Of a stretch of DNA of 64,000 nucleotides, positions 11,444 to 62,414 are shown one piece after another. Below the pieces are notes generated by a model, which did no database searches, was not told where the DNA came from, and saw only the letters and a program-made list of their open reading frames with translations. The stretch is from an uncultured Acidimicrobiales bacterium (GTDB taxonomy: Bacteria; Actinomycetota; Acidimicrobiia; Acidimicrobiales; AC-14): positions 56,812 to 120,811 of the forward strand of contig CAYZMG010000003.1 in the NCBI GenBank assembly GCA_964479465.1. Reading direction: 5' to 3'. The first letter of the stretch is position 1. The number at the start of each line of letters is the position of its first letter. The translations under genes were made by a program, and so were the position numbers.

Positions 11444-11508
11444 GGGTCCGGGATGGTTCAGCAGATCGGCACCGAGTCGTCCACCGCGAGGACCTCTGAA
11501 GCTCGCTG

Positions 11509-11552
11509 AACTGGCTGCACCCACGGTCGTATCCGACCGTCAGTGCAGCCAG
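11509..11552. repeat. palindromic intergenic repeat, copy 1 (REP-like)
   Basis: AACTGGCTGCACccACGGTCGTATcCGACCGtCAGTGCAGCCAG sits in a convergent intergenic gap. It is the same element as 44171..44216 with a few substitutions. Confidence 0.85.
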
Positions 11553-11586
11553 ATCGCTCAGCGGGGTCGGCCCGCCGTCCGATCTC

Positions 11587-28672: not shown

Positions 28673-29713
28673 ATGGCCTGGAATGACAAGCTTGTAACTG
28701 TCGCAGCGGCTTGGGATGCTGGACGGGTGGCACTCACGGCGCTCCTTCCCTCCTCTCCGTCCCTCGAGACGGCCGCCCGGCGTCTGGCCGCGCTGCTCAC
28801 GGGGGGCGAAGGCGGCCTGGCCGACCCTGGCAACGGCCATCTCCAGTTCGATGCCGAGATCCGGCTCCGACCCCTCGTTCGGGCCGATGCCGCGCCGGCG
28901 GAGGTATGGGCGGTCGACGGCGGGCAGGCCGTGGTGGCCGACGCCCGGTGCCTGCAGCTCGTCGTGGCCCGCGCCGCCCGGGTCTGCTTCCGCCTCGGGA
29001 CCTGCGAGACCGAGGACGAGGGCGACCTGCGCGCCTTCCTGCTGGGCGGCAGGGAAAACCGGGTCGTGGCCGGCGCCCTGGGCCTGGGCATCGCCGAGGA
29101 CGCCACCGTCGACCTCGGCCTGCTGCGGGACCACGAGGAGTGGGTGGCCGTCGACCGCTGCGTCGCCGAGGCCGCGCCCGGGGCCATGGTCCTCGTCGAT
29201 GGCGACCTGGAGCCCGACTGGCGGGTGCCGCCGTCGTGGCTGACCGATCTGCTGGGCCGCGCCGCGTCGCGGGGTGTCGTTGTGGCGGCCGTCACCAAGC
29301 GATCGTCGTTGTCGCGGGGCGGGGCGCCCTTGCTGGGGGCGCTGGAGATCGAGGCCACCCGCGAGCTCGGCCCGCGGGCGATGTGGTGGGCGCCGGTGGC
29401 GCGGAGCCGGGCCGGCGCCCGGGTGGTGGCCGCCCGCCTCGACGCCGACGCGCCGTTCGCCTTCCGGGTCGACCTGTCACCCGGCGCCGACCCCGAGACC
29501 GCCCTCGCCGCACTGGCCGCCCTGTGCGACGACGCCGGCTTCCCGGGCTACCCCTACCCGCTCACCGTCGCCGACCGCCTGGCCGCCTGCCCCGGCTGGC
29601 TCCGCCAGGACACCTGGTACGAGCTGGAGGAGCTGCTCGACCAGGCCGGCGTCCCCGCCGAAGTCCGCGAGCGCGCCTTCGCCGACCGCCACGACCTCAT
29701 GGAGCGGTTTTGA
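28673..29713 (+). CDS. nurA: NurA-family 5'-3' nuclease
   Basis: ORF 28673..29713(+). Carries VWAVDGGQAVV, VLVDGDL and the C-terminal GFPGYPYPLTVADRLA typical of NurA. It sits directly upstream of herA. The start is uncertain, being only 17 nt from the divergent start. Confidence 0.75.
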   Translation: MAWNDKLVTVAAAWDAGRVALTALLPSSPSLETAARRLAALLTGGEGGLADPGNGHLQFDAEIRLRPLVRADAAPAEVWAVDGGQAVVADARCLQLVVARAARVCFRLGTCETEDEGDLRAFLLGGRENRVVAGALGLGIAEDATVDLGLLRDHEEWVAVDRCVAEAAPGAMVLVDGDLEPDWRVPPSWLTDLLGRAASRGVVVAAVTKRSSLSRGGAPLLGALEIEATRELGPRAMWWAPVARSRAGARVVAARLDADAPFAFRVDLSPGADPETALAALAALCDDAGFPGYPYPLTVADRLAACPGWLRQDTWYELEELLDQAGVPAEVRERAFADRHDLMERF

Positions 29714-30057
29714 TTTCGCGCTCGCAAGCAGAGCTTGCTCGGCGAGGCAGTTGCGCTCCACCCGACCGGCAGAGCCGGTCGGGCTCCGCCGTTCCTTTCT
29801 TGGCCGCCAGCCGAGAGGGGCGGCCTGCGGCCGCTCCTGCGGCCGGCGGCAATGGGGGTCTGTGATGTCCACTGGGCGGTTGTTGATTTCGCGCTCGCAA
29901 GCAGAGCTTGCTCGGCGAGGCAGTTGCGCTCCACCCGACCGGCAGAGCCGGTCGGGCTCCGCCGTTCCTTTCTTGGCCGCCAGCCGAGAGGGGCGGCCTG
30001 CGGCCGCTCCTGCGGCCGGCGGCAATGGGGGCCTCTGATGTCCACCGGGCGGCTGTT
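29708..30057 (+). repeat. tandem direct repeat, 2 x 173 bp, spanning the nurA stop / herA start junction
   Basis: 29711-29883 and 29884-30056 align base-for-base with only 4 mismatches, all in the last ~30 nt. Each unit holds four GC-rich hairpins. In unit 1 these are at 29724-29738, 29761-29783, 29802-29825 and 29828-29845. Confidence 0.95.
29865..30038 (+). other. 57-codon upstream ORF created by the duplication; its stop overlaps the herA ATG (TGATG)
   Basis: ATG 29865 has the same GGGGG spacing as the herA start. It reads MSTGRLLISRSQAELARRG…GGNGGL and stops at TGA 30036-30038. Translation is not demonstrated. Confidence 0.35.
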
Positions 30058-31597
30058 CGGGAAGAACGTGCTCGAAGGGGTGTTCCGGGCCGCGCCCGAC
30101 GAGGATCTCTTCCTGGGCGAGCTGCTGGTGGCGGTCGACGAGGCCACGGGCCGGCGCTACCTGTTCCGCATCGTCGATGTGACCTACGGCACCGAGCACC
30201 GGGAGCCGGGCTGGGCCGAGCGGGTGGCGGGCACGCTACTGGTCGACGACGCCCGGGGCGAAGCCGGCCTGCACCGGCTCTACGACCAGTCCCGCCGGAC
30301 CTACCGGGTGGCGACGTGCCGCTGCCTCGGGTACCTGACACCCGACGGCGCCGACTTCCGCCGGCCCAAGAGCTTGCCCACCCAGTTCTCCCAGGTGGTC
30401 AAGCCCGAGGCCGCCGATTTCGACTTCCTGCGCACCCGCATGGGCGACCTGCCCGTGGGCACGTTGCGCAGCGGCGAGGAGACGGTCGATTTCGAGGTCG
30501 GCATCGCCGGCCGCAGCCTGGCCAGCCACGTCGGCATCTTCGCCACCACCGGCATGGGCAAGTCGAACCTGATGATGGTTCTGGCCGGCGACGTCCTGCG
30601 CTCCGCCGGCCGCTACGGCCTCCTGCTGATCGACCCCCACGGCGAGTACCGCACCCAGCTCGCCCGCCACCCGTGGGCGGGGGAGCGGCTGCGCACTTAC
30701 GCCGCCCGGCCGCTGCCCAACACGTCGTCGCTGAAGGTCGGCCTGGCCGAGCTCACCGTCGACGACCTGCGCACGGCATATGACTGGTCCCGCCCGCAGG
30801 AGGAGGCGCTCTACGAGCTGGAGAAGAAGTTCGGGGGCGACGGCCTGTCCTGGCTGGTGGCGTTCGCCCAGGTGGAGGATCTCCCGGGTCTGCGCGACGT
30901 TGAGCTGAACGGGCGGGTGGCGATGAACACCCTGCAGGTCCTGCACCGGCGGGCCCGGCGCATCGTGGAGCTGCCCTGCATCGCTGCCGACGCCCATGTC
31001 TCGGTCGGCGCCGCCGTGCTGCGGGATCTGCGCGAGGGCCGCGTCGTCCTCATCGACGTGAGCGGCCTCGGCTCCACCGAGGAGCTGCTGGTCGCCGCCT
31101 TCCTCACCCGCCGGGTGCTGGAGGAGTGGTCCACGGCCTACCTGGAGGATCCCGAGGCCCACGAGCGGCTGCCCGTGGTGGCCGTCGTACTCGAGGAGGC
31201 CCAGCGGGTGCTGGCCGCCAGCAAGGACCGTGACTCCAACGTCTTCCCCCGGGTGGCAAGGGAGGGGCGCAAGTTCAAGGTCGGCCTCTGCGCCGTCACC
31301 CAGCAGCCCAAGCTCCTCGACGGCGAGCTGCTCAGCCAGTTCAACACCTTCTTCATCCTCGGTCTGGCCGACGAGAAGGACCGCACCATCCTGCGCTCGT
31401 CGTCGAAGCAGGACATCGCCGCCCTCGGCCCCGAGATCCAGACCCTCATGCCCGGTGAGTGCCTGCTGGCCAACCTCGACGCCCCCTTCGCCGTGCCGGC
31501 CAAGATCCACCTCTGGGCCGACGTGGTGCGCAACTGCCCGCCGCCGCCGGCGCCCCGCCCCGTGGTCGCCGCCAACGTCTCGGCGATGGTCGACTGA
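30038..31597 (+). CDS. herA: HerA-family (FtsK/HerA clade) hexameric ATPase/helicase
   Basis: In ORF 29735..31597(+), start at ATG 30038 after the repeat. Walker A is GIFATTGMGKSNLM. Walker B region is VVAVVLEEAQRV. The conserved segment GRKFKVGLCAVTQQP is present. Confidence 0.85.
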   Translation: MSTGRLFGKNVLEGVFRAAPDEDLFLGELLVAVDEATGRRYLFRIVDVTYGTEHREPGWAERVAGTLLVDDARGEAGLHRLYDQSRRTYRVATCRCLGYLTPDGADFRRPKSLPTQFSQVVKPEAADFDFLRTRMGDLPVGTLRSGEETVDFEVGIAGRSLASHVGIFATTGMGKSNLMMVLAGDVLRSAGRYGLLLIDPHGEYRTQLARHPWAGERLRTYAARPLPNTSSLKVGLAELTVDDLRTAYDWSRPQEEALYELEKKFGGDGLSWLVAFAQVEDLPGLRDVELNGRVAMNTLQVLHRRARRIVELPCIAADAHVSVGAAVLRDLREGRVVLIDVSGLGSTEELLVAAFLTRRVLEEWSTAYLEDPEAHERLPVVAVVLEEAQRVLAASKDRDSNVFPRVAREGRKFKVGLCAVTQQPKLLDGELLSQFNTFFILGLADEKDRTILRSSSKQDIAALGPEIQTLMPGECLLANLDAPFAVPAKIHLWADVVRNCPPPPAPRPVVAANVSAMVD

Positions 31598-32721
31598 TGC
31601 GCGTCGCAGCGCTGGGCGACGCCCACCTCGGCCGCTCGTACTACTCGTACACGACGGCCGACGGCTTCAACCAGCGCGAGCGCGACTTCGAGGACTCCTT
31701 CACCCGGGCGGTGGAGCTGGCCCTCGCCCAGTCGCCCGACCTGCTGGTGTGGCTGGGCGACATCTTCGACCACCCCCGCCCCACCTACCGGTCCTACCGC
31801 ATTGCCCAGAGGGCGCTGGTGCGCATCCGCGAGCACGGCACGCCGCTCGTGCTGATCACAGGCAACCACGACACGCCCCGGCTCCCGGGCACCGGCAGCC
31901 CCTACTCGGCGCTGGCCGACCTGTTTCCCGAGTTCCACTTCGCCCATCGCATGGCGTATGAGCGGTTCGCCTTTCCCGGGCTCGTCGTCCACGCCGTGCC
32001 CCAGATGCTCACCGTCGACGCCACCCTCGACGCCCTGGCCGAGGCCCGCCTGAGCCGGTCCTCCGACGCCACCAACCTCCTGCTGACCCACCCCCGGGTG
32101 CCGCAGGTCGAGCCCCACCACTCCGACATCAACGAGATCGCGGTCGACGCCGGCCTGCTCAAGTCCTCGGCCGACCTGGCCCTCCTCGGGCACTACCACT
32201 TCCACACCAAGGTCGACAGCGGCATCTGGTACGCCGGCTCCACCGACACGTTCTCCTACGCGGATGATCCCGAAGTGGCCAAGGGCATCGTCCTGCTTGA
32301 CACCGACTCCGGCCAGATCGCCCACATCCCCCTGAGCGGCCAGCGGCCGCTCATCACCCCGCCCGCGGTGCACGCCCTGGGGCTGTCGCCGGCCGAGGTG
32401 CAGGAGCGGGTCCTGGAGCGGGTGGCGGCGGTGCCGGCCGGCGCCGTGGTCCGCCTGTTCCTCGAGGGCGTCGACCCCGAGGCCTACCGCATGCTCGACC
32501 TGGAGGCGATCCGGGCGGCGTCGGCCCACGCCCTCCACCTCAAGCTCCAGCCCGACTTTGCCGGCTCGAAGACCAACGTGGAGCTGCCCGACCTGGCCTC
32601 GCTGCCGGTGCAGTGGGCCAACTACGTGCAGGGCCAGGACCTCGTCGGCTTCGATCGAGACCGCATACGGAACAAGGGCGACGAGTACCTGGCCCGCGCC
32701 GTCGAGGAGGCCATCGACTAG
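31597..32721 (+). CDS. mre11: Mre11/SbcD-family nuclease (calcineurin-like phosphoesterase)
   Basis: In ORF 31459..32721(+). ATG 31597 overlaps the herA stop (TGATG). Phosphoesterase motifs: GDAHLG, GDIFD, GNHD, LLTHP and GHYH. Confidence 0.85.
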   Translation: MRVAALGDAHLGRSYYSYTTADGFNQRERDFEDSFTRAVELALAQSPDLLVWLGDIFDHPRPTYRSYRIAQRALVRIREHGTPLVLITGNHDTPRLPGTGSPYSALADLFPEFHFAHRMAYERFAFPGLVVHAVPQMLTVDATLDALAEARLSRSSDATNLLLTHPRVPQVEPHHSDINEIAVDAGLLKSSADLALLGHYHFHTKVDSGIWYAGSTDTFSYADDPEVAKGIVLLDTDSGQIAHIPLSGQRPLITPPAVHALGLSPAEVQERVLERVAAVPAGAVVRLFLEGVDPEAYRMLDLEAIRAASAHALHLKLQPDFAGSKTNVELPDLASLPVQWANYVQGQDLVGFDRDRIRNKGDEYLARAVEEAID

Positions 32722-32723
32722 CC

Positions 32724-35000
32724 GTGCGCGTCACCCGACTGCACCTGCGGAACTACCGCGTGTTCGAGGACGACCTCGACCTGGAGATCCCGCCGGGGCT
32801 CGTCGGCATCTACGGGCTCAACGGCGCCGGCAAGTCGGCGCTCATCGAGAGCATCCGGTTCACCCTCTACGGCAAGTCGCGGACCCAGATGGACGAGGTG
32901 CGCACGTCGGGCGTCAACGCCGAGTGCCTCACCGAGGTGGAGTTCGAGCACGAGGGCCACCTGTACCTCGTGCGGCGCACGATCAGCGGGTCCAACTCCC
33001 AGGTCAAGGCGGAGGCCCACGCCGACGGCCAGCAGGTGGCCGAGGGCGTGCGCGACACGAGCCGCTACGTCCACTCCATCCTGGGCATGAGCGACGCCGC
33101 CTTCCGGGCCTCCGTCTTCGCCGAGCAGAAGCAGATCGCCGCGTTCAGCGAGCAGACGCCGGCCGACCGCCGCAAGCTGGTCCTCCAGCTGCTGGGCATC
33201 ACGCCGCTCGACGCGGCGCGCGACCTGGCCCGCAAGGACGCCCGCTTCGCCCAGGACCAGTTCCAGCGCCTGCGCAGCGTGCTGCCCGACCTCGACCTGC
33301 TGCGCCTGGCCGTCGCCGCCGCCGATGTGGCCGCCGCCGAGGCCGAGGAGCGCAAGGCGGAACATGAGGCCGTCGCTGTCGTCGCCCGGGCCGAGTTGGA
33401 GAAGGCCGTCGCCCGCCACCTCGACCTCGACGTCCTGCGCCAGGAGCACGAGCGGCTGGTGGCCGAGGGTAAGGCGGTGCGCGAGCAGTACGAGAAGGCC
33501 GCGGCCTGGGTGGCCAAGCTCACCGAGGAGAAGGCCGACCTTGAACGGGTGGCCGAGCGGCTGAAGATCCTGACTCCGGATGCCGAGGGCTGGAAGGCGG
33601 CGGAGGACCGGCTGCGGCTGGTGGAGGCGGTGGTGGCCGCGCAGGCCGCACTGGCGAAGGTGCCGGTACCGGTCACGCCGCTGGCGCCGGACGAGTCGGG
33701 GTACGAGGTGGCCCGCGCCGAGGCGGAGGAGGCCAAGGTGGCCCTGGCCGCCGTCAACGCCACCATCCAGGCGGCGAAGGTCGAGCGCGATCGGGCCACC
33801 GAGGCGGTGACCCGCTCGGCCGCGCTCACGGGCGAGGGCGACTGCCCGCTGTGCGGCCAGGCCCTGGGTGACGCCTTCGAGGCGGTGCAGGCCCACCGGA
33901 AGGCCGACCTGGCCGAGATCGAGGCCCGCCTCAACGAGCTGGAGCTCGATCACCGTCAGGCCGTCGTCTCAGCCACGACCAAGGGCGAGCACGCCGCCGT
34001 CCTGGCCAAGGCGCTCCGGCGGGCCCAGGAGGAGTGGGCCACGCACGAGAAGCGAGTCGCACGCCGCCAGGAGGCGGAGGCCGCCCTCGCCGCCGCCGAG
34101 GCCGCCCTCGGACGGCCCCTTACCGACGGCGAGCGGAGCGCGCTGGCGGCCGAGGTCGAGCGCCGGCGCCAGGCCAAGGACGAGTGCCAGCGAATCCATG
34201 GTCGGTTGGAGCGACGGGAGGCCGTCGCCGGCGAGCTCGACGTGGAGCAGGCGGCCATGGCCGAGAGCCTGGGGCGGCTGGCGGCGTTGCGCGACAAGGT
34301 CGCCGGCCTCAACTTCCACCCGGATCAGCTCACCGTGGCCCTGGCCGAGCGGGCACGCCTCCAGGCCGCGGCCGAAGCCGCCAACCTGCGGGCCCAGGGC
34401 TCGACGGTCGTGGCCACCCAGGCTCGGGAGCGAGCCCAGGCCGAGGCCCGCCGCCTGGGCGAGGCCACCGAGCAGCACGCGCAGCTGGCCGAGTTGGGGG
34501 AGGAGGCTCGCCATCTGGCCCGCCTTGGCGACCTGCTCAACGCCTTCCGCAACACCTTGGTGGCCTCGGTCGGTCCCCGGCTCTCGGCCCAGGCGGCCGA
34601 GCTGTTCGCCGAGCTGACCGACCGGGAGTACGACCGCCTGGAGGTCGACCCCGACACCTACGAGATCAAGATCCTCGACGCCGGCCGCACCTTCGGCATG
34701 GGCCGGTTCTCCGGGTCGGAGACCGATCTGGCCAACCTGGCCCTGCGGGTCGCGGTGAGCGAGCACGTGCGCTTCCAGTCCGGCGGCGCCGTCGGCCTCC
34801 TCGTGCTCGACGAGGTGTTCGGCCCCCTCGACGACGACCGCAAGGCCCGGATGCTTGTCGCCCTGGAACGGCTGCGGGCCCGGTTCCGCCAGGTGCTGGT
34901 CGTCACCCACGACACAGCCATCAAGGAACAGCTCCCGAACGCCATCGAGGTCGTCAAGCTGCCCGGCCGGCGGGCCACGGCGCGCACCGTCAACGCCTGA
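32724..35000 (+). CDS. rad50: Rad50/SbcC-family SMC-like ATPase with CxxC zinc hook
   Basis: In ORF 32613..35000(+). GTG 32724 lies 2 nt after the mre11 stop. Walker A is GLNGAGKS. A long coiled coil carries the hook GDCPLCGQ at its centre. Signature SGSETDLANLA; Walker B LLVLDEVFGPLD. Confidence 0.85.
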   Translation: MRVTRLHLRNYRVFEDDLDLEIPPGLVGIYGLNGAGKSALIESIRFTLYGKSRTQMDEVRTSGVNAECLTEVEFEHEGHLYLVRRTISGSNSQVKAEAHADGQQVAEGVRDTSRYVHSILGMSDAAFRASVFAEQKQIAAFSEQTPADRRKLVLQLLGITPLDAARDLARKDARFAQDQFQRLRSVLPDLDLLRLAVAAADVAAAEAEERKAEHEAVAVVARAELEKAVARHLDLDVLRQEHERLVAEGKAVREQYEKAAAWVAKLTEEKADLERVAERLKILTPDAEGWKAAEDRLRLVEAVVAAQAALAKVPVPVTPLAPDESGYEVARAEAEEAKVALAAVNATIQAAKVERDRATEAVTRSAALTGEGDCPLCGQALGDAFEAVQAHRKADLAEIEARLNELELDHRQAVVSATTKGEHAAVLAKALRRAQEEWATHEKRVARRQEAEAALAAAEAALGRPLTDGERSALAAEVERRRQAKDECQRIHGRLERREAVAGELDVEQAAMAESLGRLAALRDKVAGLNFHPDQLTVALAERARLQAAAEAANLRAQGSTVVATQARERAQAEARRLGEATEQHAQLAELGEEARHLARLGDLLNAFRNTLVASVGPRLSAQAAELFAELTDREYDRLEVDPDTYEIKILDAGRTFGMGRFSGSETDLANLALRVAVSEHVRFQSGGAVGLLVLDEVFGPLDDDRKARMLVALERLRARFRQVLVVTHDTAIKEQLPNAIEVVKLPGRRATARTVNA

Positions 35001-36216: not shown

Positions 36217-36324
36217 CTCCCCCGGATCCTGCCCTGTGTTGTCCTCATTGGGGAAATGCTTGATCTTGCGCGGTCTGTCGGATCAGATGTCCTCCGATAC
36301 CTGTCCCTGTAGAAGGAGGTGGTC

Positions 36325-36828
36325 GTGAACAAGTCCGATGTGATTCAAGACGTGGCCGGCGTGTCCGGTGTGAGCAAGTCAGACGTGGAAAAGGTCATCG
36401 ACGCCTTCTTCGACTCGGTCCGGACCGCGGCGAGCAACGGTGACCGGGTGGCGTGGCCGAGCTTCGGTTCGTTCTCGGTCACCCAGCGCCAGGCCCGCAC
36501 CGGCCGCAACCCCCGCACGGGAGAGCCCGTACCCATCGCCGCGTCGAAGGCGCTGAAGTTCTCCGCCAGCTCGGCGCTCAAGACGGCCCTCAACCCGCCC
36601 AAGGCGAAGGCGGCCAAGAAGGGCGCTACCGCCGCTCCGGCCAAGAAGGGTGCCGCGGCGCCGAAGAAGGCGGCTGCGGCTCCCAAGAAGGCGGCGCCGG
36701 CGGCCAAAGCAGCGCCGGCCAAGAAGGCGGCGCCGGCCAAGAAGGCGGCGCCGGCCAAGAAGGCCGCCACCAAGGCCCCCGCAGCCAAGGCGCCGGCCAA
36801 GAAGGCCACCAAGAAGGCCAAGAAGTAG
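36325..36828 (+). CDS. hupB: HU-family nucleoid protein with Lys/Ala/Pro-rich C-terminal tail (HupB/Hlp type)
   Basis: ORF 36319..36828(+). I prefer GTG 36325 because AAGGAGG (36313-36319) lies 5 nt upstream. HU fold motifs are FGSFSVTQRQARTGRNPRTGE. The tail consists of AAPAKKAAPAKK-type repeats. Confidence 0.9.
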   Translation: MNKSDVIQDVAGVSGVSKSDVEKVIDAFFDSVRTAASNGDRVAWPSFGSFSVTQRQARTGRNPRTGEPVPIAASKALKFSASSALKTALNPPKAKAAKKGATAAPAKKGAAAPKKAAAAPKKAAPAAKAAPAKKAAPAKKAAPAKKAATKAPAAKAPAKKATKKAKK

Positions 36829-41166: not shown

Positions 41167-42207
41167 ATGACCGACCACGCCGCCGTCGCCGCGAACGCCG
41201 CTCACCTCGAGCAGGCCCTGTTCGAGGTCAAGAAGGTCATCGTCGGCCAGGATCAGGTGATCGAGCGCCTGGTGGCCTGTCTGCTGGCCCGGGGCCACTG
41301 CCTGCTCGAAGGGGTGCCCGGCCTGGCCAAGACGCTGGCCGTGGAGACCCTGGCCGAGGTGGTGGGCGGTACGTTCGTGCGCCTCCAGTTCACCCCCGAC
41401 CTCATCCCGTCCGACCTCACCGGCACCCGCATCTACCGGCAGTCCAGCGAGACCTTCGACGTCCAGCTCGGCCCCATCTTCGCCAACTTCGTCCTCGCGG
41501 ATGAGATCAACCGGGCCCCGGCCAAGGTCCAGTCCGCCCTCCTCGAGGTCATGTCCGAGCGCCAGGTGTCCCTGGGCGGGCAGACGTTCAAGGTGCCCAA
41601 TCCGTTCCTGGTCCTCGCCACCCAGAACCCGATCGAGTCCGAGGGCGTCTACCCGCTCCCCGAGGCCCAGCGCGACCGGTTCCTCATGAAGATCATGGTC
41701 AACTACCCGGACCGCAACGAGGAGGTGGAGATCGTCCAGCGGATGGCCGTGAACCCTCCGCACGCCAACCGGGTGCTCTCCCTCGACGACCTGGTGACGC
41801 TGCAGGCCGCAGCCGACTCGGTCTTCGCCCACAGAGCCGTCGTCGACTACGCGGTCCGCATCGTGCACGCCACCCGCGCCCCGGCCGAGCACGGGCTGGG
41901 CGACATCGTCGGCATGATCGACTACGGCGCCAGCCCGCGGGCCAGCCTGGGTCTCGTGGCCGGCGCCCGGGCCCTCGCCCTGCTGCGGGGGCGGGACTAC
42001 GTGCTGCCCCAGGACATCGTCGACGTGGCGCCCGACGTGCTGCGCCACCGGCTGGTCCTGTCCTATGAGGCGCTGGCCGACGGCGTCTCGATCGACAACC
42101 TGGTGACCAAAGTCCTCGGCACCGTGCCGGCGCCCCGGCTGGCGCCAAGCCAGGACACCACCGCCATCGACGGGGTCGACGTGCCCGGCGTGGCCAGTAC
42201 GGCGTGA
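41167..42207 (+). CDS. MoxR-family AAA+ ATPase
   Basis: ORF 41167..42207(+). Carries LLEGVPGLAKT, ADEINRAPAKVQSALLEVM and VLATQNP. Confidence 0.9.
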   Translation: MTDHAAVAANAAHLEQALFEVKKVIVGQDQVIERLVACLLARGHCLLEGVPGLAKTLAVETLAEVVGGTFVRLQFTPDLIPSDLTGTRIYRQSSETFDVQLGPIFANFVLADEINRAPAKVQSALLEVMSERQVSLGGQTFKVPNPFLVLATQNPIESEGVYPLPEAQRDRFLMKIMVNYPDRNEEVEIVQRMAVNPPHANRVLSLDDLVTLQAAADSVFAHRAVVDYAVRIVHATRAPAEHGLGDIVGMIDYGASPRASLGLVAGARALALLRGRDYVLPQDIVDVAPDVLRHRLVLSYEALADGVSIDNLVTKVLGTVPAPRLAPSQDTTAIDGVDVPGVASTA

Positions 42208-43142
42208 AGGTCCTGCCCGCGACGGGCGAAGGTCTCAGCGACCGCCGGCCCGAGGAGGTTCTGCGCCGGCTCCAGCTCACCATCACCCGCCGGCTCGACG
42301 GGCTGCTCCAGGGCGACTACCAGGCGCTGCTGCCCGGACTGGGCAGCGAGCCCGGCGACAGCCGGGAGTACCAGGAGGGCGACGACGTCCGCCGCATGGA
42401 CTGGGCGGTGACGGCCCGGACGACGGTGCCCCACGTGCGCGACCCGGTCGCCGACCGGGAGCTGGAGTCGTGGGCCATCGTCGACTGCTCGGCCAGCATG
42501 GACTTCGGCACCGGCAACTGCGAGAAGCGCGACCTGGCGCTGGCCGCGGTGGCCGCCATCGGGTTCATGACGACTCGCACCGGGAACCGCTTCGGCGCCC
42601 TCTTGGTGAAGCCCGACGGCATCACCCGCATCCCCTCCCGCCCCGGCCAGCAACCGCTCATGGCCTTGCTCCACAAGCTCGCCATCCGCGAGCGCGTCGA
42701 CGGTAGCGGGTCCACCGATTTGGGCGCCGCCATCGTGAGCCACATGGTGGCCCGCCGGCGGCGGGGTCTGGCCGTCGTGGTGTCGGACTTCCTGTCGCCC
42801 CCCGGCTGGGAGCGGCCCCTCACCGGCCTCTGTGCCCGCCACCAGGTGCTGGCAGTGGAGGTCATCGACCGGCGGGAGCTGGAGCTGCCCAACGTCGGCT
42901 ACCTCACCCTGGTGGACCCCGAGACGGGCCGGCGCATGGAACTGCAGACCGCGAAGGCCAGCATCCGGCAGCGCTACGCCGAGGCCGCCGCGGCCCAGCG
43001 GGCCGAGATCGCCGCTGCCATCCGCCGCGCCGGCGCCCAGCACCTTGTCCTGCGCACCGACCAGGACTGGCTGCGCGACATCGTCGACTTCGTCCTGTCC
43101 GCCCGCCGGCACCGTGGTGCCCTGCAGAGAGTCAACCGATGA
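42204..43142 (+). CDS. DUF58 domain protein (MoxR partner)
   Basis: ORF 42204..43142(+). It has a 4-nt overlap with moxR. Carries SREYQEGDDVRRMDW, typical of DUF58. Confidence 0.85.
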   Translation: MKVLPATGEGLSDRRPEEVLRRLQLTITRRLDGLLQGDYQALLPGLGSEPGDSREYQEGDDVRRMDWAVTARTTVPHVRDPVADRELESWAIVDCSASMDFGTGNCEKRDLALAAVAAIGFMTTRTGNRFGALLVKPDGITRIPSRPGQQPLMALLHKLAIRERVDGSGSTDLGAAIVSHMVARRRRGLAVVVSDFLSPPGWERPLTGLCARHQVLAVEVIDRRELELPNVGYLTLVDPETGRRMELQTAKASIRQRYAEAAAAQRAEIAAAIRRAGAQHLVLRTDQDWLRDIVDFVLSARRHRGALQRVNR

Positions 43143-43218
43143 TCCTCGTCCTTCGCCTGTCGGCCCGCCGCCACCGAGGCGCCCTCCAGCACGTCAGCCG
43201 ATGATCTTCGCCCTCACC
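43095..43218 (+). repeat. diverged tandem duplication (2 x 62 bp, about three quarters identical by hand alignment) of the DUF58-stop/VWA-start junction, creating a 21-codon ORF (43139..43204)
   Basis: The segment CTGTCCGCCCGCCGGCACCGTGG…CCGATGATCCTCGTCC aligns with CTGTCGGCCCGCCGCCACCGAGG…CCGATGATCTTCGCCC. The mini-ORF MILVLRLSARRHRGALQHVSR has ATGA overlaps at both ends. Confidence 0.7.
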
Positions 43219-44160
43219 TTCCTCTCCCGCGGCCGGTTGTGGTTCCTGCTCCTCGTCGCCGCCCTCATCGCCGCCTACGTGATGATGCAGATGCGGCGCA
43301 AGGAGTACGCGGTCCGGTTCACCAATCTGGCCCTCCTCGACTCCATCGCCCCGAAGCGCCCCACCTGGCGCAAGCACATCCCCGCCACTGCCTTCATCCT
43401 GGCCATGATCGCCCTGGTCACCGCGTTCGCCCAGCCGGCACGCCCGGTCAAGGTGCCGCGCGAGCGGGCGACCGTTGTGATGGCGATCGACGTGTCGCTG
43501 TCGATGGAGGCCACCGATGTCGAGCCCAACCGTCTCCTCGCCGCCCAGGAGGCGGCCAAGTCCTTCGTCGACCTGGTCCCCGCCCGCCTGAACCTCGGCC
43601 TGGTGGCGTTCTCCGGCGTGGCCCAGGTGCTCGTGTCTCCGACCACCGACCACGGCCTGCTCAAGCGCAGCATCGACAACCTCATCCTCGGCCCGCGCAC
43701 CGCGGTGGGGGAGGCCATCTTCGCCAGCCTCGGTAGCATCGCCTCGGTGGCGTCGGAGCCGGGCCAGCCGCTGCCCCCTGGGCGCATCGTGCTGATGTCC
43801 GACGGCGAGACCACCGTCGGTCGGGCCAACGAGATGGCCATCCAGGCCGCCACCGACGCCCAGGTCCAGATCTCCACCATCGCCTTCGGCACCGACGACG
43901 GCACCGTCTTCGTCGAGGGCCGCAGCATCCCTGTGCCGGTGAACCGTGAGGCCCTGGGTGCCATCGCCGAGGCCACCGGCGGCCGGGCCTTCGAGGCCGC
44001 CACCGGCCGCGAGCTGCGCCGGGTCTACGCCGACATCGGTAGCTCCATCGGTTACCGCACCGAGGAGCGCGAGGTCACCTCCTGGCTGGTCGGGCTGGCG
44101 CTGGCCTTCGCCCTGGCCGCCGCCGCCGGCTCCCTGCTGTGGAGCTCCCGCCTGCCCTAA
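43201..44160 (+). CDS. von Willebrand factor A domain membrane protein (BatA-like)
   Basis: In ORF 42832..44160(+), ATG 43201. It has N- and C-terminal TM helices. MIDAS region is VMAIDVSLSM. Confidence 0.85.
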   Translation: MIFALTFLSRGRLWFLLLVAALIAAYVMMQMRRKEYAVRFTNLALLDSIAPKRPTWRKHIPATAFILAMIALVTAFAQPARPVKVPRERATVVMAIDVSLSMEATDVEPNRLLAAQEAAKSFVDLVPARLNLGLVAFSGVAQVLVSPTTDHGLLKRSIDNLILGPRTAVGEAIFASLGSIASVASEPGQPLPPGRIVLMSDGETTVGRANEMAIQAATDAQVQISTIAFGTDDGTVFVEGRSIPVPVNREALGAIAEATGGRAFEAATGRELRRVYADIGSSIGYRTEEREVTSWLVGLALAFALAAAAGSLLWSSRLP

Positions 44161-44170
44161 CCCCTCTGCG

Positions 44171-44216
44171 AACTGGCTGCACTGACGGTCGTATACGACC
44201 GCCAGTGCAGCCAGTT
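44171..44216. repeat. palindromic intergenic repeat, copy 2 (REP-like)
   Basis: AACTGGCTGCACTGACGGTCGTA|TACGACCGCCAGTGCAGCCAGTT is a 46-bp palindrome with one arm mismatch. It lies between the VWA gene and rpiB. Confidence 0.9.
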
Positions 44217-44236
44217 GGCGAAGGCGGGCGGTACCG

Positions 44237-53627: not shown

Positions 53628-53860
53628 TGTGCATTGTTGTACCTCAAAGGTACAAGAATGCACACTCAGCTGCCGGCGGGCCGGCGACCGAATCGCTCGC
53701 CGGCGGGGCGGGGGGCGCATTGCTTACCGCCGAGAGGTACAAGAATGCACACAAACTCGGTGGCGGACCGCCGCCGGAGTCGAGTGTGCATTTTTCGGTC
53801 CCAGAGACGTAACTTTGCACACTCGATGGCTGGCGGCACCTCCGCGGGTCCGAGTCTGCT
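53628..53860. repeat. three tandem, progressively degenerate hairpin units in a convergent intergenic region
   Basis: Unit 1 (53628-53664) is TGTGCATTGTTGTACC-TCAAA-GGTACAAGAATGCACA: 16-nt arms with one mismatch and a 5-nt loop. Unit 2 is at 53715-53752 and unit 3 at 53784-53822. All three share TGCA…GGTACAAGAATGCACAC-type cores and similar GC-rich tails. Confidence 0.85.
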
Positions 53861-60908: not shown

Positions 60909-62414
60909 TTGCGAAAGCTCCACCTCGTGGGGTTGACCACCGACCGCGACGGTTTGATCTTCACGGCCCGGAAGGGCTCGAAGTCGGGTGGGTACATCGT
61001 GCCCCTCGACAAGAAGGTGCTGGCCGCCATCGCCGCCGCAAGCGACTCGGCCAACGGCGATCCGGCGGAGAAGCCGGCGCCGAAGGGCGACGTCGAGGCG
61101 GTGCCCAAGCGGCTGCGCAGCGAGAGCGCCCTGACGCCCCGGGAGATGCAGGCTCGCCTGCGCTCCGGACGCACCATCGACGAGGTGGCGGCCGAGGCCG
61201 GCGTCGACACCGAGTGGGTGGCCCGCTTCGCGGTGCCGATCCTCGCCGAGCAGGCCCAGGTGGTGGAGCTGGCCCGGAGCGTGGTCTACGCCAAGCCCCG
61301 CTTGGGCGAGTCGAGCGAGCCGCTGGGTTCCTCGGTCGTGCAGAACCTGTCGGACCGGGGCGTCTTCATGCCCGACGATGTCCTCAACGCCGGCTGGAGC
61401 GCGTTCCAGCTCCACGACTCGGTGTGGATGGTGCGCTTCCGCTACCGGTCCCGGGGGCGCGACCAGGAGGCCCAGTGGGAGATCGACGTGCCCACCGGGC
61501 GCCTGCGGGCCCGGAACCGCCAGGCGTCCGACCTGGGCTACGTGGGGCCCGACCGCTGGCAGGGCGAAGAGGAACTGGACGAGCCGTCCGCCGAGACGCC
61601 GGCGCCGGCGCCGCCCGCCCGCCGGCGGGCCGCACCGGCCCCCAAGCCCGCACCGAGGTCGGCGCGCCCGGCCAAGAGGGGGGCAAAAGCGGCCAAGGCG
61701 ACCAAAGCGCGGACTCCCGCCCGCCGGGCGGCGGCCAGGGCCACGCCGGCCCCGCCGGCGAAGATCAAAGCGGCCAGAGCTTCAGCGGCCAGAACTTCAG
61801 CGGCGCGCAACGTCAAGTCGGCGCCGGCCGTCAAGAGGGCAGCGCCCCGGAAGGCCGCTGTTGCCACCCGGAAGGCCGCGGTTGCCACCCGGAGGGCGGC
61901 GCCCAAGACCACCGCCCGCCCGGCCCCGGCCAAGGCCGCCAGCCGGCGCCGGGCCACGAAGGCGGTGCCCGCCCCCGAGGCGGGGCCAGCGGCAGGTTCG
62001 GGCGGGGTGCGGATGGCCGTGGCCCGAGTCTCCACGGCGCGAGTGGCGGCCAGCATGGCCTCGGCTGACCGCGAACCGTGGGCGGCCGCCGTCCGGCGGG
62101 GGTCGCGAAGCGGCGCCGGCACGGCGGCGCCGCCCGGAGATTCGCAGTCCACGTTCAGGCCGGCGGCCTCCCGTGAAAGGGGGTCCGACCGGAAGGGGAC
62201 GGTGGGGCCGTTCGAGCCCCGACCCTTGCCCAAGCCCGGGAGCGAGCCGCCGGAACCGCGCATCCGCAAGGTCACCGTTCCCGCGCCTCGGGTTCCGGCC
62301 GGCGACGGCGTCGGGCCAGCCATCACCCTCCCCGCGCCCCGCCGCCAGGCGAAGGACACCGAGGCCCTGGCCTCCGGCGAGCGGCCGAAGCGGCGGCGGC
62401 TGCGGTCCCGCTGA
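60909..62414 (+). CDS. sepH: SepH (DUF3071) actinobacterial cell-division protein with long basic Ala/Arg/Lys tail
   Basis: In ORF 60852..62414(+), proposed TTG 60909 (RKLHLVGLTTDRDGLIFT…LTPREMQARLRSGRTIDEVAAEAGVDTEWVARFAVPILAEQ). The tail contains short in-frame tandem repeats (RKAAVAT x2). Confidence 0.8.
   Translation: MRKLHLVGLTTDRDGLIFTARKGSKSGGYIVPLDKKVLAAIAAASDSANGDPAEKPAPKGDVEAVPKRLRSESALTPREMQARLRSGRTIDEVAAEAGVDTEWVARFAVPILAEQAQVVELARSVVYAKPRLGESSEPLGSSVVQNLSDRGVFMPDDVLNAGWSAFQLHDSVWMVRFRYRSRGRDQEAQWEIDVPTGRLRARNRQASDLGYVGPDRWQGEEELDEPSAETPAPAPPARRRAAPAPKPAPRSARPAKRGAKAAKATKARTPARRAAARATPAPPAKIKAARASAARTSAARNVKSAPAVKRAAPRKAAVATRKAAVATRRAAPKTTARPAPAKAASRRRATKAVPAPEAGPAAGSGGVRMAVARVSTARVAASMASADREPWAAAVRRGSRSGAGTAAPPGDSQSTFRPAASRERGSDRKGTVGPFEPRPLPKPGSEPPEPRIRKVTVPAPRVPAGDGVGPAITLPAPRRQAKDTEALASGERPKRRRLRSR

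What the first reader, a model, noticed from the sequence alone, without database searches (positions are those of the whole stretch)
29708..30057. Near-perfect 173-bp tandem duplication of a hairpin-dense nurA-herA leader, creating a uORF coupled to herA
Seen: 29711-29883 and 29884-30056 are identical for the first ~140 nt. They differ at only 4 positions, all within the last ~30 nt around the GGGGG/ATG (gggggTctGtgATGtccacTgggcggT versus gggggCctCtgATGtccacCgggcggC). Each unit starts at a TGA, which is the nurA stop in unit 1, and ends 19 nt into the herA coding sequence. GCGGTT microhomology flanks the junctions. Each unit carries four strong hairpins: GCAAGC-AGA-GCTTGC, CCCGACCGGC-AGA-GCCGGTCGGG, GGCCGCC-N10-GGCGGCC and CGGCCGC-TCCT-GCGGCCG. 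Two of them share an AGA triloop. The unit-1 ATG (29865) opens a 57-codon ORF that reads through unit 2 and stops at TGA 30036-30038, overlapping the herA ATG at 30038. Inference: the spacer is a structured cis-regulatory RNA or protein-binding leader for the herA-mre11-rad50 operon. The duplication is either recent and microhomology-mediated or maintained by conversion. It places herA translation downstream of a coupled uORF. Cis-regulatory RNAs upstream of sbcCD-type genes have been proposed in other phyla, but I cannot claim homology.
Basis: partly seen in the sequence, partly recalled or inferred. Interest (0 to 1): 0.7.

Follow-up and report, generated by a model that had tools for sequence, protein, structure and literature searches.

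The report
Duplicated relay element between nurA and herA
The nurA-herA spacer is one copy-number variant of a hairpin-rich element that sits exactly between stop and start codons of adjacent genes and carries a small frame-preserved reading frame, much like mycobacterial MIRUs, rather than a herA-specific regulatory RNA.

Summary
Window 29711-29883 and 29884-30056 are a 173-bp tandem duplication, 169/173 identical, with all four differences in the last 25 nt.

- An independently assembled contig (L001) is identical over about 8.1 kb of flanks but carries a single unit. The duplication is therefore recent and polymorphic, or was collapsed in that assembly.
- The spacer is not a conserved herA leader. 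Of 79 orthologous loci, 46 have nurA and herA overlapping directly. Close relatives have empty sites (TGATG) or unrelated inserts.
- The same element also lies between pheS and pheT (L029) and between mre11 and rad50 (L176).
- Every copy starts at the upstream stop codon and ends at the downstream start codon. Each holds a mini-ORF whose frame is conserved but whose peptide is not.
- The hairpins show compensatory changes.
- Other tandem duplications of overlapping gene junctions have periods of 3n-1 or 3n, never 3n+1. This holds in related lineages and at 43.1 kb in this window.

Best reading: a MIRU-like intercistronic element that keeps translational coupling through a termination-reinitiation relay. 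The 173-bp (3n-1) duplication adds one relay step. Translation itself is inferred, not shown.

The parts
28673..29713 (+). nurA-like gene (346 aa); its stop TGA is at 29711-29713
   Evidence: ORF. Pfam NurA is only E=0.012. A member of the same 90% cluster is named NurA by NCBI. Conserved nurA-herA-mre11-rad50 order.
29711..29883 (+). Unit 1 of the 173-bp tandem duplication: the type-A intercistronic element plus a copy of the first 19 nt of herA
29884..30056 (+). Unit 2. Its 3' tail is identical to the single unit of L001, so it is the ancestral copy feeding the real herA start
29710..29865 (+). Mini-ORF 1. TTG overlaps the nurA stop (TTGA), 51 codons follow, and TGA overlaps the next start (GTGATG). 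An SD-like GGAG lies at 29701-29704
   Evidence: The same architecture is seen in L001, L159, L176, L099, L101, L103, L179 and L029.
29865..30038 (+). uORF 2, 57 codons from ATG 29865 (58 from GTG 29862). It consists of 6 herA codons plus the mini-ORF of unit 2, and ends at TGA 30036-30038, overlapping the herA ATG
29724..29738 (+). Hairpin H1, GCAAGC-AGA-GCTTGC (unit 2: 29897-29911), nested in an outer TCGC/GCGA helix
29761..29783 (+). Hairpin H2, CCCGACCGGC-AGA-GCCGGTCGGG (unit 2: 29934-29956). This is the most conserved part of the element
   Evidence: the closing pair switches C-G/G-C, 3:3.
29803..29850 (+). Compound hairpin H3 (unit 2: 29976-30023), followed by the SD-like GGGGG at 29854-29858 (unit 2: 30027-30031)
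   Evidence: 6 pairs with compensatory change.
29859..29884 (+). Diverged tail and junction of unit 1. Four C>T/G/T/T differences lie at 29859, 29862, 29873 and 29880. The junction is GTT|GA with TT microhomology
   Evidence: direct reading of the sequence.
30038..31597 (+). herA (519 aa)
   Evidence: Pfam DUF87/HerA 3.4e-20; NCBIfam HerA models; 2207 homologues.
31597..35000 (+). mre11-like gene (31597-32721) and rad50/sbcC-like gene (32724-35000), tightly joined downstream genes of the operon
43078..43204 (+). Second, older junction duplication in the same window. A 62-nt (3n-1) repeat of the DUF58/BatA ATGA junction creates the 21-codon mini-ORF 43139-43204, ATGA-overlapped at both ends

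Best explanation
The nurA-herA spacer is a copy of a roughly 150-180-nt, GC-rich, three-hairpin intercistronic element ('type A') found in a clade of uncultured Acidimicrobiia.

How the element sits. It lies exactly between the stop codon of one gene and the start codon of the next co-oriented gene, flanked by a short direct repeat (TGAT, or ATG). It carries a mini-ORF whose start overlaps the upstream stop and whose stop overlaps the downstream start.

Inferred mechanism.
- Ribosomes that finish nurA reinitiate on the mini-ORF.
- They unwind the hairpins as they translate, terminate on top of the herA start, and reinitiate there. An SD-like G-run at the element's 3' end helps.
- The ancestral translational coupling of nurA and herA therefore survives the insertion. 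This is the logic proposed for mycobacterial MIRUs.

The finding itself. It is a recent, strain-level tandem duplication of the element plus 19 nt of herA, joined at a TT microhomology. Its period is 173 = 3n-1, so the copied herA start opens a second mini-ORF that again ends on the true herA start. The relay now has two steps instead of one.

Why this duplication persists. Duplications of such junctions recur in this clade, and those that persist have periods 3n-1 (relay) or 3n (in-frame N-terminal extension). An extra relay step probably lowers HerA-Mre11-Rad50 output relative to NurA somewhat.

Shown: the anatomy, the polymorphism, the dispersal, conservation of frame but not peptide, hairpin covariation, and the bias in period classes.
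Inferred: actual translation and reinitiation, selection as the cause of the bias, the mode of mobility, and any effect on expression.
For: 1. The duplication is present.
2. L001 matches the window with unit 1 removed, over 8252 aligned columns, except at 5 columns. All 5 lie inside the element. L001 has one unit with the unit-2 tail.
3. Dispersal. nhmmer finds the element at nurA-herA in WIN, L001, L159, L176, L099, L103 and L178. It also finds it at mre11-rad50 in L176 (E 1e-21, before that copy entered the model) and at pheS-pheT in L029 (BLAST E 2e-10), always in the direction of the operon.
4. Empty versus filled sites. Relatives read ...GGTTCTGATG(AGC/TCC)ACC.... The window reads ...GGTTTTGAT[152 nt]GTCCACC..., with TGAT on both sides.
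5. Frame closure. Eleven of 13 distinct spacer lengths are 1 mod 3 (151, 121, 133, 166, 148, 67, 61, 31, 181, 166...), which is what one overlapped mini-ORF requires; about 1/3 is expected by chance. Substitutions are spread evenly over codon positions (12/8/12, 9/8/8, 11/6/7), and different copies align partly out of phase. The frame is kept, not the peptide.
6. Hairpins. 92.9% of cells are paired. Nine pairs show compensatory change, against 3.4+-1.3 in shuffles (0/500) and 1-4 in slid controls.
7. Junction tandem repeats elsewhere have periods 173, 71, 32, 23, 17, 14 and 62 (all 2 mod 3) and 30 and 15 (0 mod 3). None is 1 mod 3. L155 has 9 and L150 has 3 copies of the same 17-nt GTGA-chained unit.
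8. Literature. MIRUs insert at start codons so that an internal ORF is coupled at -4 nt (PMC12548453). They have ORFs overlapping both neighbours, tetranucleotide direct repeats and GC-rich inverted repeats (PMC3184786). Their 77- and 53-bp units (PMC4213456) are also 3n-1.
Against: - No expression or ribosome data exist. In 71% GC DNA, open frames are cheap: interior shuffles keep the relay in about 50% of trials once length and ends are fixed. The argument therefore rests on length classes, which are few and partly related by descent.
- If an N-terminally extended HerA is also counted as 'coupled', 2 of 3 frames are acceptable and the statistics weaken (controls).
- Only two non-herA copies were found, and no other copy lies in the 64-kb window or in about 500 kb of related loci. 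Mobility and copy number are therefore thinly documented.
- The duplication boundaries do not coincide with the element boundaries, unlike MIRU arrays.
- The single unit in L001 comes from a k=139 short-read assembly, which could in principle collapse a repeat.
- The four clustered substitutions in the unit-1 tail are unexplained.
Confidence: 0.6

Rival explanations
1. Assembly artefact. The source genome has one unit, and the second was created by mis-assembly, for example two strain haplotypes laid in tandem. Alternatively the true copy number differs from 2.
For: The only independent full-length assembly of this haplotype (L001) has one unit. All differences between the two assemblies lie inside the repeat, which could reflect consensus trouble in hairpin DNA. 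The window comes from a metagenome-assembled contig: cluster listing gives NCBI, 123,584 nt. Reads are not available here.
Against: The junction sequence GGCGGTTGT|TGATTTCGC must exist in reads for graph or overlap assemblers to emit it. The two units differ by four substitutions and no indels, which is not the pattern of a copy-paste artefact. A k=31 Logan contig from SRR8863431 carrying the identical NurA ends exactly at window-equivalent 29739, the position expected if a second left-neighbour (G29882) exists for the 31-mer starting at 29710. A second dispersed copy could also explain that break. Analogous junction duplications occur in many independent assemblies.
Confidence: 0.15
2. A herA-specific structured cis-regulatory RNA, such as a riboswitch-like or protein-binding leader controlling herA-mre11-rad50.
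For: The hairpins are conserved with compensatory changes among five nurA-herA copies. The leader folds better than shuffles: z = -2.25 for one unit and -4.55 for the whole 371 nt.
Against: The spacer is absent from most herA orthologues, including ones with 92-97% identical HerA. It is replaced by unrelated type-B and type-C inserts in others. It is present at pheS-pheT and mre11-rad50. There is no Rfam hit and no promoter or terminator signal. The minus strand folds at least as well (z = -4.21), as expected for plain palindromes.
Confidence: 0.07
3. A REP/BIME- or MITE-like selfish or structural hairpin element whose relevant activity is at the DNA or mRNA level. Possible roles are mRNA 3'-end protection giving differential nurA versus herA levels, a protein binding site, or transposase recognition. 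On this view the mini-ORF is an incidental open frame in GC-rich DNA and the duplication is neutral slippage.
For: GC-rich palindromes with covariation are compatible with DNA or RNA hairpins on either strand. The element is dispersed. Open frames are common at 71% GC. The element is hypervariable between otherwise identical haplotypes, as expected for slippage-prone hairpin DNA.
Against: It does not explain why every copy begins precisely on a stop codon and ends precisely on a start codon in the operon's orientation. It does not explain why spacer lengths cluster in the one mod-3 class that closes the mini-ORF (11 of 13), or why junction duplications avoid 3n+1 periods. No terminal inverted repeats are evident on reading the element ends. 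No other copy occurs in the 64-kb window.
Confidence: 0.15
4. The mini-ORF or uORF encodes a functional small protein.
For: The N-terminal SQAELARRG and central APxDRRSRS motifs recur in several copies.
Against: That conservation tracks the DNA hairpins. Substitutions are not biased to third positions, and copies align out of phase over 40-60% of their length. A profile search of 5.8 billion proteins with the peptide alignment found nothing.
Confidence: 0.03

Closest known systems
MIRU (mycobacterial interspersed repetitive units; Supply et al. 1997, as summarised in PMC12548453, PMC3184786 and PMC4213456)
   Same: Actinobacterial host. Sits between co-oriented genes of an operon, in one orientation. 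Contains a small ORF whose ends overlap the neighbours' stop and start (-4/-1 geometry). Flanked by about 4-nt direct repeats, with empty sites in relatives. Has GC-rich internal inverted repeats. Copy number varies in tandem between strains. Unit lengths are 3n-1 (77 and 53 bp, versus 173 here and 152 for the element proper).
   Different: The host is of a different class (Acidimicrobiia MAGs, not Mycobacterium). The element is 2-4 times longer (about 150-180 nt) and has three conserved hairpins. No sequence homology was tested or is expected. Genomic copy number is unknown, with only three junction types seen. The duplicated segment is offset from the element and includes 19 nt of herA, so it is a local segmental duplication rather than a head-to-tail element array.
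Translational coupling by termination-reinitiation at overlapping stop/start codons (ATGA, TGATG; Huber et al. 2019 and 2023, cited in PMC12548453)
   Same: The ancestral nurA/herA junction is a 1- or 4-nt overlap in 46 of 79 loci. All links of the relay use the same overlaps. The genes encode subunits of one complex, the class of pairs said to be enriched for such coupling.
   Different: Here the coupling would run through one or two non-coding mini-ORFs of 51-58 codons spanning strong hairpins, not directly between the two genes. This is untested.
REP/BIME and other intercistronic palindromic repeats (for example the intercistronic REPs reviewed in PMC3184786)
   Same: Dispersed GC-rich stem-loops in intercistronic regions of operons. 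Modular: L101 combines the 5' hairpin of type A with the body of type B.
   Different: REPs are about 35 bp, highly abundant and not positioned on stop/start codons. They carry no frame-closed ORF. No further copies occur in the 64-kb window.

Membership tests
MIRU-like intercistronic relay element | Located between co-oriented genes of an operon, in the operon's orientation | tested here: met
   nurA-herA (WIN, L001, L159, L176, L099, L103), mre11-rad50 (L176) and pheS-pheT (L029). All are on the + strand relative to the genes.
MIRU-like intercistronic relay element | Internal ORF whose start overlaps the upstream stop and whose stop overlaps the downstream start | tested here: met
   TTGA/TGATG at the 5' end and TGATG/GTGA/TTGA/ATGA at the 3' end in every type-A copy. 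The L029 and L176b copies were read by hand.
MIRU-like intercistronic relay element | Short direct repeats at the ends, and empty sites in relatives | tested here: met
   TGAT on both sides in WIN, L001, L176a and L029. Empty TGATG sites in L098, L100, L102, L177 and L180-182.
MIRU-like intercistronic relay element | Tandem copy-number variation between strains (VNTR behaviour) | tested here: inconclusive
   Two units in the window against one in L001, with identical flanks. However, the repeat is offset from the element boundaries, rests on two assemblies only, and reads were not available.
MIRU-like intercistronic relay element | Tens of dispersed copies per genome | tested here: inconclusive
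   One locus in the 64-kb window and two in one operon of L176. No more were found in about 500 kb of held loci. The whole genome was not available.
MIRU-like intercistronic relay element | Sequence homology to the MIRU consensus; 40-100 bp units; mycobacterial host | not tested
   No MIRU sequence was at hand. Size (152-181 nt) and host (Acidimicrobiia) differ, so this is an analogue and not a member of the MIRU family proper.
Structured cis-regulatory RNA of herA (riboswitch or leader) | Conserved upstream of orthologous genes, with covariation | tested here: not met
   Covariation exists within element copies, but the element is missing from most herA orthologues and present at other genes. 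There is no Rfam family: best E = 0.5-8, below gathering.
REP/BIME | About 35-bp palindromic units present at high density across the genome | tested here: not met
   No other copy of any of the three hairpins occurs in 64 kb, even allowing 3 mismatches. The H2 pattern in 596 Gb hits unrelated taxa as generic hairpins or terminators.
MITE | Terminal inverted repeats plus target-site duplication | tested here: not met
   A direct repeat TGAT is present. The element ends, TTCGCGCTCGC... and ...GGCAATGGGGGCCTC, are not inverted repeats of each other on direct reading. No dedicated test was run.
Intrinsic terminator or attenuator | GC hairpin followed directly by a T-run | tested here: not met
   The scan found only one weak site at 29866-29878, no more than in shuffles.
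Termination-reinitiation coupling | Downstream translation depends on upstream termination at an overlapping site | not testable with these tools
   The sequence geometry is met at every link. Function needs reporters or Ribo-seq.

The most novel reading that the evidence does not exclude
The nurA/herA junction, and other overlapping junctions such as DUF58/BatA, may act as a contingency locus. Slippage-prone junction sequences and inserted hairpin elements would generate tandem copy-number variants. Selection would retain only those with 3n-1 periods that keep a termination-reinitiation relay. The number of relay mini-ORFs (1 versus 2 here, 3 versus 9 in L150/L155) would then tune the NurA:HerA-Mre11-Rad50 ratio heritably but reversibly. 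This would be a translational VNTR rheostat inside a DNA-repair operon, and a general rule of 3n-1 for how coupled junctions evolve. It would also explain the 77- and 53-bp MIRU unit lengths.
Probability: 0.2. Interest if true: 0.7.

Novelty: new variant of a known kind. Interest (0 to 1): 0.5.

Why it matters
- It would extend MIRU-type 'ribosome relay' elements beyond mycobacteria to an uncultured actinobacterial class, in a larger form with three hairpins.
- It gives a simple, testable rule: insertions and duplications at translationally coupled gene junctions survive only if they close a mini-ORF (spacer length 1 mod 3, repeat period 3n-1) or stay in frame.
- That rule can be checked genome-wide with existing data. 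It bears on how operon stoichiometry tolerates selfish DNA.
- For annotation, it warns that hairpin-rich 'leaders' between coupled genes need not be gene-specific riboregulators.

Tried and rejected
- Rfam scan of 28.5-31.5 kb at E<=10 gave only noise: CRISPR-DR28, M23 and others, all far below gathering.
- Exact-pattern scan of 596 Gb of genomes with hairpin H2 (loop free) gave 90 loci in unrelated phyla. All but L029 share only the 23-27-nt hairpin. The Nocardia hits are an orthologous terminator between convergent genes.
- A profile search of 5.8 billion proteins with the nine mini-ORF peptides found no hit. An exact look-up of the 57-aa uORF found nothing on record.
- The promoter and terminator scan found nothing beyond shuffles.
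- Shuffling spacer interiors as a null for the relay is uninformative, because about 50% of shuffles succeed once length and ends are fixed. Length classes were used instead.
- Deleting 2 nt still leaves a form of coupling, as an N-terminally extended HerA, so the 'any coupling' statistic was dropped.
- Extending the L176 contig to 16.7 kb found no further copies. Type-B and type-C inserts were found only at nurA-herA.
- 'GCGGTT microhomology' as the crossover site was rejected, because it is out of register by 1 nt.
- A small-protein function was rejected on the codon-position pattern.
Full report
**1. Observation**

The window is 71% GC. Its HerA has thousands of homologues in Acidimicrobiales/Actinomycetota metagenome bins.

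The gene order is:
- nurA-like, 28673-29713;
- herA, 30038-31597;
- mre11-like, 31597-32721;
- rad50/sbcC-like, 32724-35000.

The nurA call is weak by profile (Pfam NurA E=0.012). A member of the same 90% cluster is named NurA by NCBI.

TRF finds a 173-nt period over 29704-30057, with 2.1 copies and 97% matches. The differences are at 29859/30032 (T/C), 29862/30035 (G/C), 29873/30046 (T/C) and 29880/30053 (T/C).

The hairpins are real:
- H1 at 29724-29738;
- H2 at 29761-29783;
- compound H3 at 29803-29850.

ATG 29865 opens a 57-codon ORF that ends at TGA 30036-30038, on top of the herA ATG.

Three corrections apply.
- The in-register repeat is 29710-30057, so the junction microhomology is just TT. 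The 'GCGGTT' motifs are one base out of register.
- Unit 1 is itself a closed mini-ORF. TTG 29710 overlaps the nurA stop as TTGA, runs 51 codons, and ends at TGA 29863-29865, which overlaps the next start.
- The uORF's termination on the herA start follows mechanically from 173 = 3n-1 together with the TGATG motif.

**2. Is the duplication fixed, polymorphic or artefactual?**

An ENA contig (L001, ERZ27284381 k139_354717, 8252 nt) encodes the identical HerA and NurA but has a 151-nt spacer, which is one unit. After removing unit 1 from the window, the two sequences differ at only 5 columns over 8252 aligned columns. All 5 lie inside the element:
- A/G in the H2 loop;
- a T-shift in the T-rich tract.

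L001's tail equals unit 2. Unit 2 is therefore ancestral, and the four substitutions arose in, or were imported into, the unit-1 tail. All four are C to T/G/T/T on the + strand. All are synonymous in the frame read at that point. C29862G creates a GTGA start. I could not explain this cluster (note 5).

A Logan k=31 contig from SRR8863431 (L093) with the identical NurA ends exactly at window-equivalent 29739. That is where a de Bruijn unitig must stop if the 31-mer starting at 29710 has two left neighbours (T29709 and G29882). This fits the tandem junction. It would also fit a second dispersed copy sharing the 5' 31-mer, so it is supportive but not decisive.

I put the probability that the duplication is an assembly artefact at about 0.15. 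The caveat cuts both ways: L001 is a short-read assembly and could have collapsed a repeat.

**3. The spacer is not a conserved herA leader**

I collected 80 metagenomic loci with HerA orthologues, plus loci for close relatives.

Of 79 usable loci, 46 have a herA-frame start codon overlapping the nurA stop (ATGA/GTGA/TTGA/TGATG), with no mini-ORF in between. The apparent spacer lengths range from -1 to 338 nt.

Relatives with HerA protein 92-97% identical fall into four groups:
- an empty site...GGTTCTGATGAGCACC... (L177, L180-182, L098, L100, L102);
- an unrelated 61-67-nt hairpin insert, 'type C' (L094, L097, L175);
- a different 133-148-nt insert, 'type B' (L101, L179, L095);
- the window's 'type A' element (L159, L176, L099, L103, L178).

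Rfam has nothing. There is no promoter or terminator signal.

**4. The element is dispersed and sits on stop and start codons**

The genome-wide scan with hairpin H2 mostly hit generic hairpins. One hit was different. In an Acidimicrobiales MAG (L029), a homologous element of about 170 nt lies between pheS (...NDIRFLEQF*) and pheT (MRVPLSWL...). It has the same 5' TTTTGATTTCGC, and its 33-nt core GCTCCACCCGACCGGCGGAGCCGGTCGGGCTCC is identical to that of L001.

In L176 a second copy lies between mre11 and rad50. nhmmer gave E=1e-21 before that copy was added to the model.

No further copy exists in the 64-kb window or the other held loci.

In all copies the element starts at the upstream stop (TGAT[T/G]TCGC...) and ends at the downstream start. 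Comparing empty and filled sites gives a TGAT direct repeat.

**5. Frame is conserved, peptide is not**

Every type-A, -B and -C insert examined, and several others, contains a mini-ORF whose start overlaps the upstream stop and whose stop overlaps the downstream start. L175 and the last link in L095 are the exceptions: there stop and start are adjacent, not overlapping.

This geometry requires spacer length 1 mod 3. Eleven of 13 distinct lengths satisfy it: 151, 121, 133, 166, 148, 67, 61, 31, 181, 166... against 62 and 338. My own binomial estimate against 1/3 is about 2e-4. The lengths are not all phylogenetically independent.

Substitutions between copies are even across codon positions (12/8/12, 9/8/8, 11/6/7). 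Distant copies align out of phase over 40-60% of their length, yet still close the frame. Selection, if any, therefore acts on frame closure and not on a peptide. A profile search with the peptides found nothing.

The caveat is that open frames are cheap at 71% GC. If an N-terminally extended HerA also counts as coupled, two of three frames are tolerated.

**6. Hairpins**

On six copies, including L029, the consensus structure has 41 pairs with 92.9% of cells paired. Nine pairs show double-sided changes, against 3.4+-1.3 in shuffles (0/500) and 1-4 in slid controls.

The stems are maintained, but on an element and not on a herA leader. They are palindromes, so the minus strand and DNA hairpins are equally compatible.

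**7. Junction duplications recur and respect the frame rule**

| Locus | Period or repeat | mod 3 | Note |
|---|---|---|---|
| Window, nurA/herA | 173 | 2 | two units |
| L095 | 71 | 2 | plus a larger repeat of type B |
| L113 | 32 | 2 | |
| L116 | 23 | 2 | |
| L150 / L155 | 17 | 2 | 3 versus 9 copies; each unit is a 6-codon GTGA-chained mini-ORF |
| L127 / L130 / L131 | 14 | 2 | |
| L145 | 30 | 0 | in-frame HerA N-terminal extension |
| L158 | 15 | 0 | in-frame HerA N-terminal extension |
| Window, 43.1 kb | 62 | 2 | older duplication, about 80% identical |

In that last case, the DUF58 (42204-43142)/BatA (43201-44160) ATGA junction was duplicated. The result is the 21-codon mini-ORF 43139-43204. 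It combines the BatA N-terminus with the DUF58 C-terminus and is ATGA-overlapped at both ends.

In total, 7 of 9 periods are 3n-1, 2 are 3n, and none is 3n+1. My binomial estimate for at least 7 of 9 against 1/3 is about 0.008.

**8. Comparison with the known**

Reviews describe MIRUs in the following terms.
- They are mobile repeats that insert at start codons, so that an internal ORF is coupled to the downstream gene at -4 nt (PMC12548453, citing Supply 1997).
- Their ORFs overlap both neighbours, and they have tetranucleotide direct repeats, GC-rich inverted repeats and about 40-50 copies (PMC3184786).
- The senX3-regX3 spacer carries variable numbers of 77- and 53-bp units (PMC4213456). 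Both lengths are 3n-1.

The element here works like a MIRU on every architectural criterion I could test. It differs in host class, in size (152-181 nt) and in its hairpin content. Its copy number is unknown and homology is untested. I therefore file it as an analogue, a new variant of a known kind, and not as a MIRU family member.

**9. Verdict**

The finding is a real and probably recent 173-bp duplication. The 'leader' is a dispersed intercistronic relay element. The coupled uORF is the expected outcome of a 3n-1 duplication of a coupled junction.

The mechanism is inferred from sequence geometry and comparative bias only. It consists of termination-reinitiation through one or two mini-ORFs, with ribosomes melting the hairpins.

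- Interest: 0.5.
- Confidence in the best explanation: 0.6.

Noticed in passing
window 43078-43204: An older 62-nt (3n-1) tandem duplication of the DUF58/BatA-VWA ATGA junction. It creates a 21-codon mini-ORF (43139-43204, MILVLRLSARRHRGALQHVSR) that is ATGA-overlapped at both ends. Five of 7 codon differences from the DUF58 C-terminus are synonymous.
   Followed up: partly
window 11508-11566 and 44161-44228: Two copies (83-86% identical) of a near-perfect palindrome of about 56 nt, AACTGGCTGCAC...GTGCAGCCAGTT, 32.6 kb apart. The second lies immediately after the BatA gene end. It could be another dispersed hairpin element, an operator or a terminator.
   Followed up: no
window 53648-53695 and 53735-53782: A direct repeat starting AGGTACAAGAATGCACAC, 87 nt apart. 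It is unusually AT-rich for this genome and may be a duplicated promoter or operator region.
   Followed up: no
window 36319-36828: An HU-like DNA-binding protein with a long Lys/Ala/Pro-rich AKKA-repeat tail (repeats at 36601-36825), as in actinobacterial HupB/Hlp. This accounts for the 18-nt and 15-nt tandem repeats reported there.
   Followed up: partly
window 59741-59673 (-) and 7927-7833 (-): A crude scan found further candidate GTGA-chained mini-ORFs (22 codons; 24+7 codons) between co-oriented high-GC3 ORFs. They could be chance.
   Followed up: partly
window 29944 and 29967-29973, compared with L001 1447-1477: Across 8252 aligned columns, the window (unit 1 removed) and L001 differ only inside the element: a loop A/G and a T-shift. 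Possible causes are a hypermutable element, conversion from other copies, or consensus error in hairpin DNA.
   Followed up: partly
L155 192-344 and L150 2522-2572: The same 17-nt unit (CGTGAGCGCGGTGCTGA) occurs 9 times versus 3 times at the nurA/herA junction in two related lineages. Each unit is a 6-codon mini-ORF chained by GTGA. This is VNTR-like behaviour.
   Followed up: partly
L095 2660-3001: A 338-nt nurA-herA spacer built from a type-B element, with a 71-nt repeat (x2.1, 97% matches) carrying SD+TGATG and a second copy of about 125 nt. It is an independent complex duplication of the herA start region.
   Followed up: partly
L176 5700-5886 and L029 7251-7426: Type-A element copies at the mre11-rad50 and pheS-pheT junctions. 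L101 (1622-1765) is a hybrid with the type-A 5' hairpin and the type-B body, which suggests modular hairpin cassettes.
   Followed up: partly
window 61846-61901: A 21-nt repeat, 2.7 copies, 91% matches (CCCGGAAGGCCGCGGTTGCCA). Its context was not examined.
   Followed up: no
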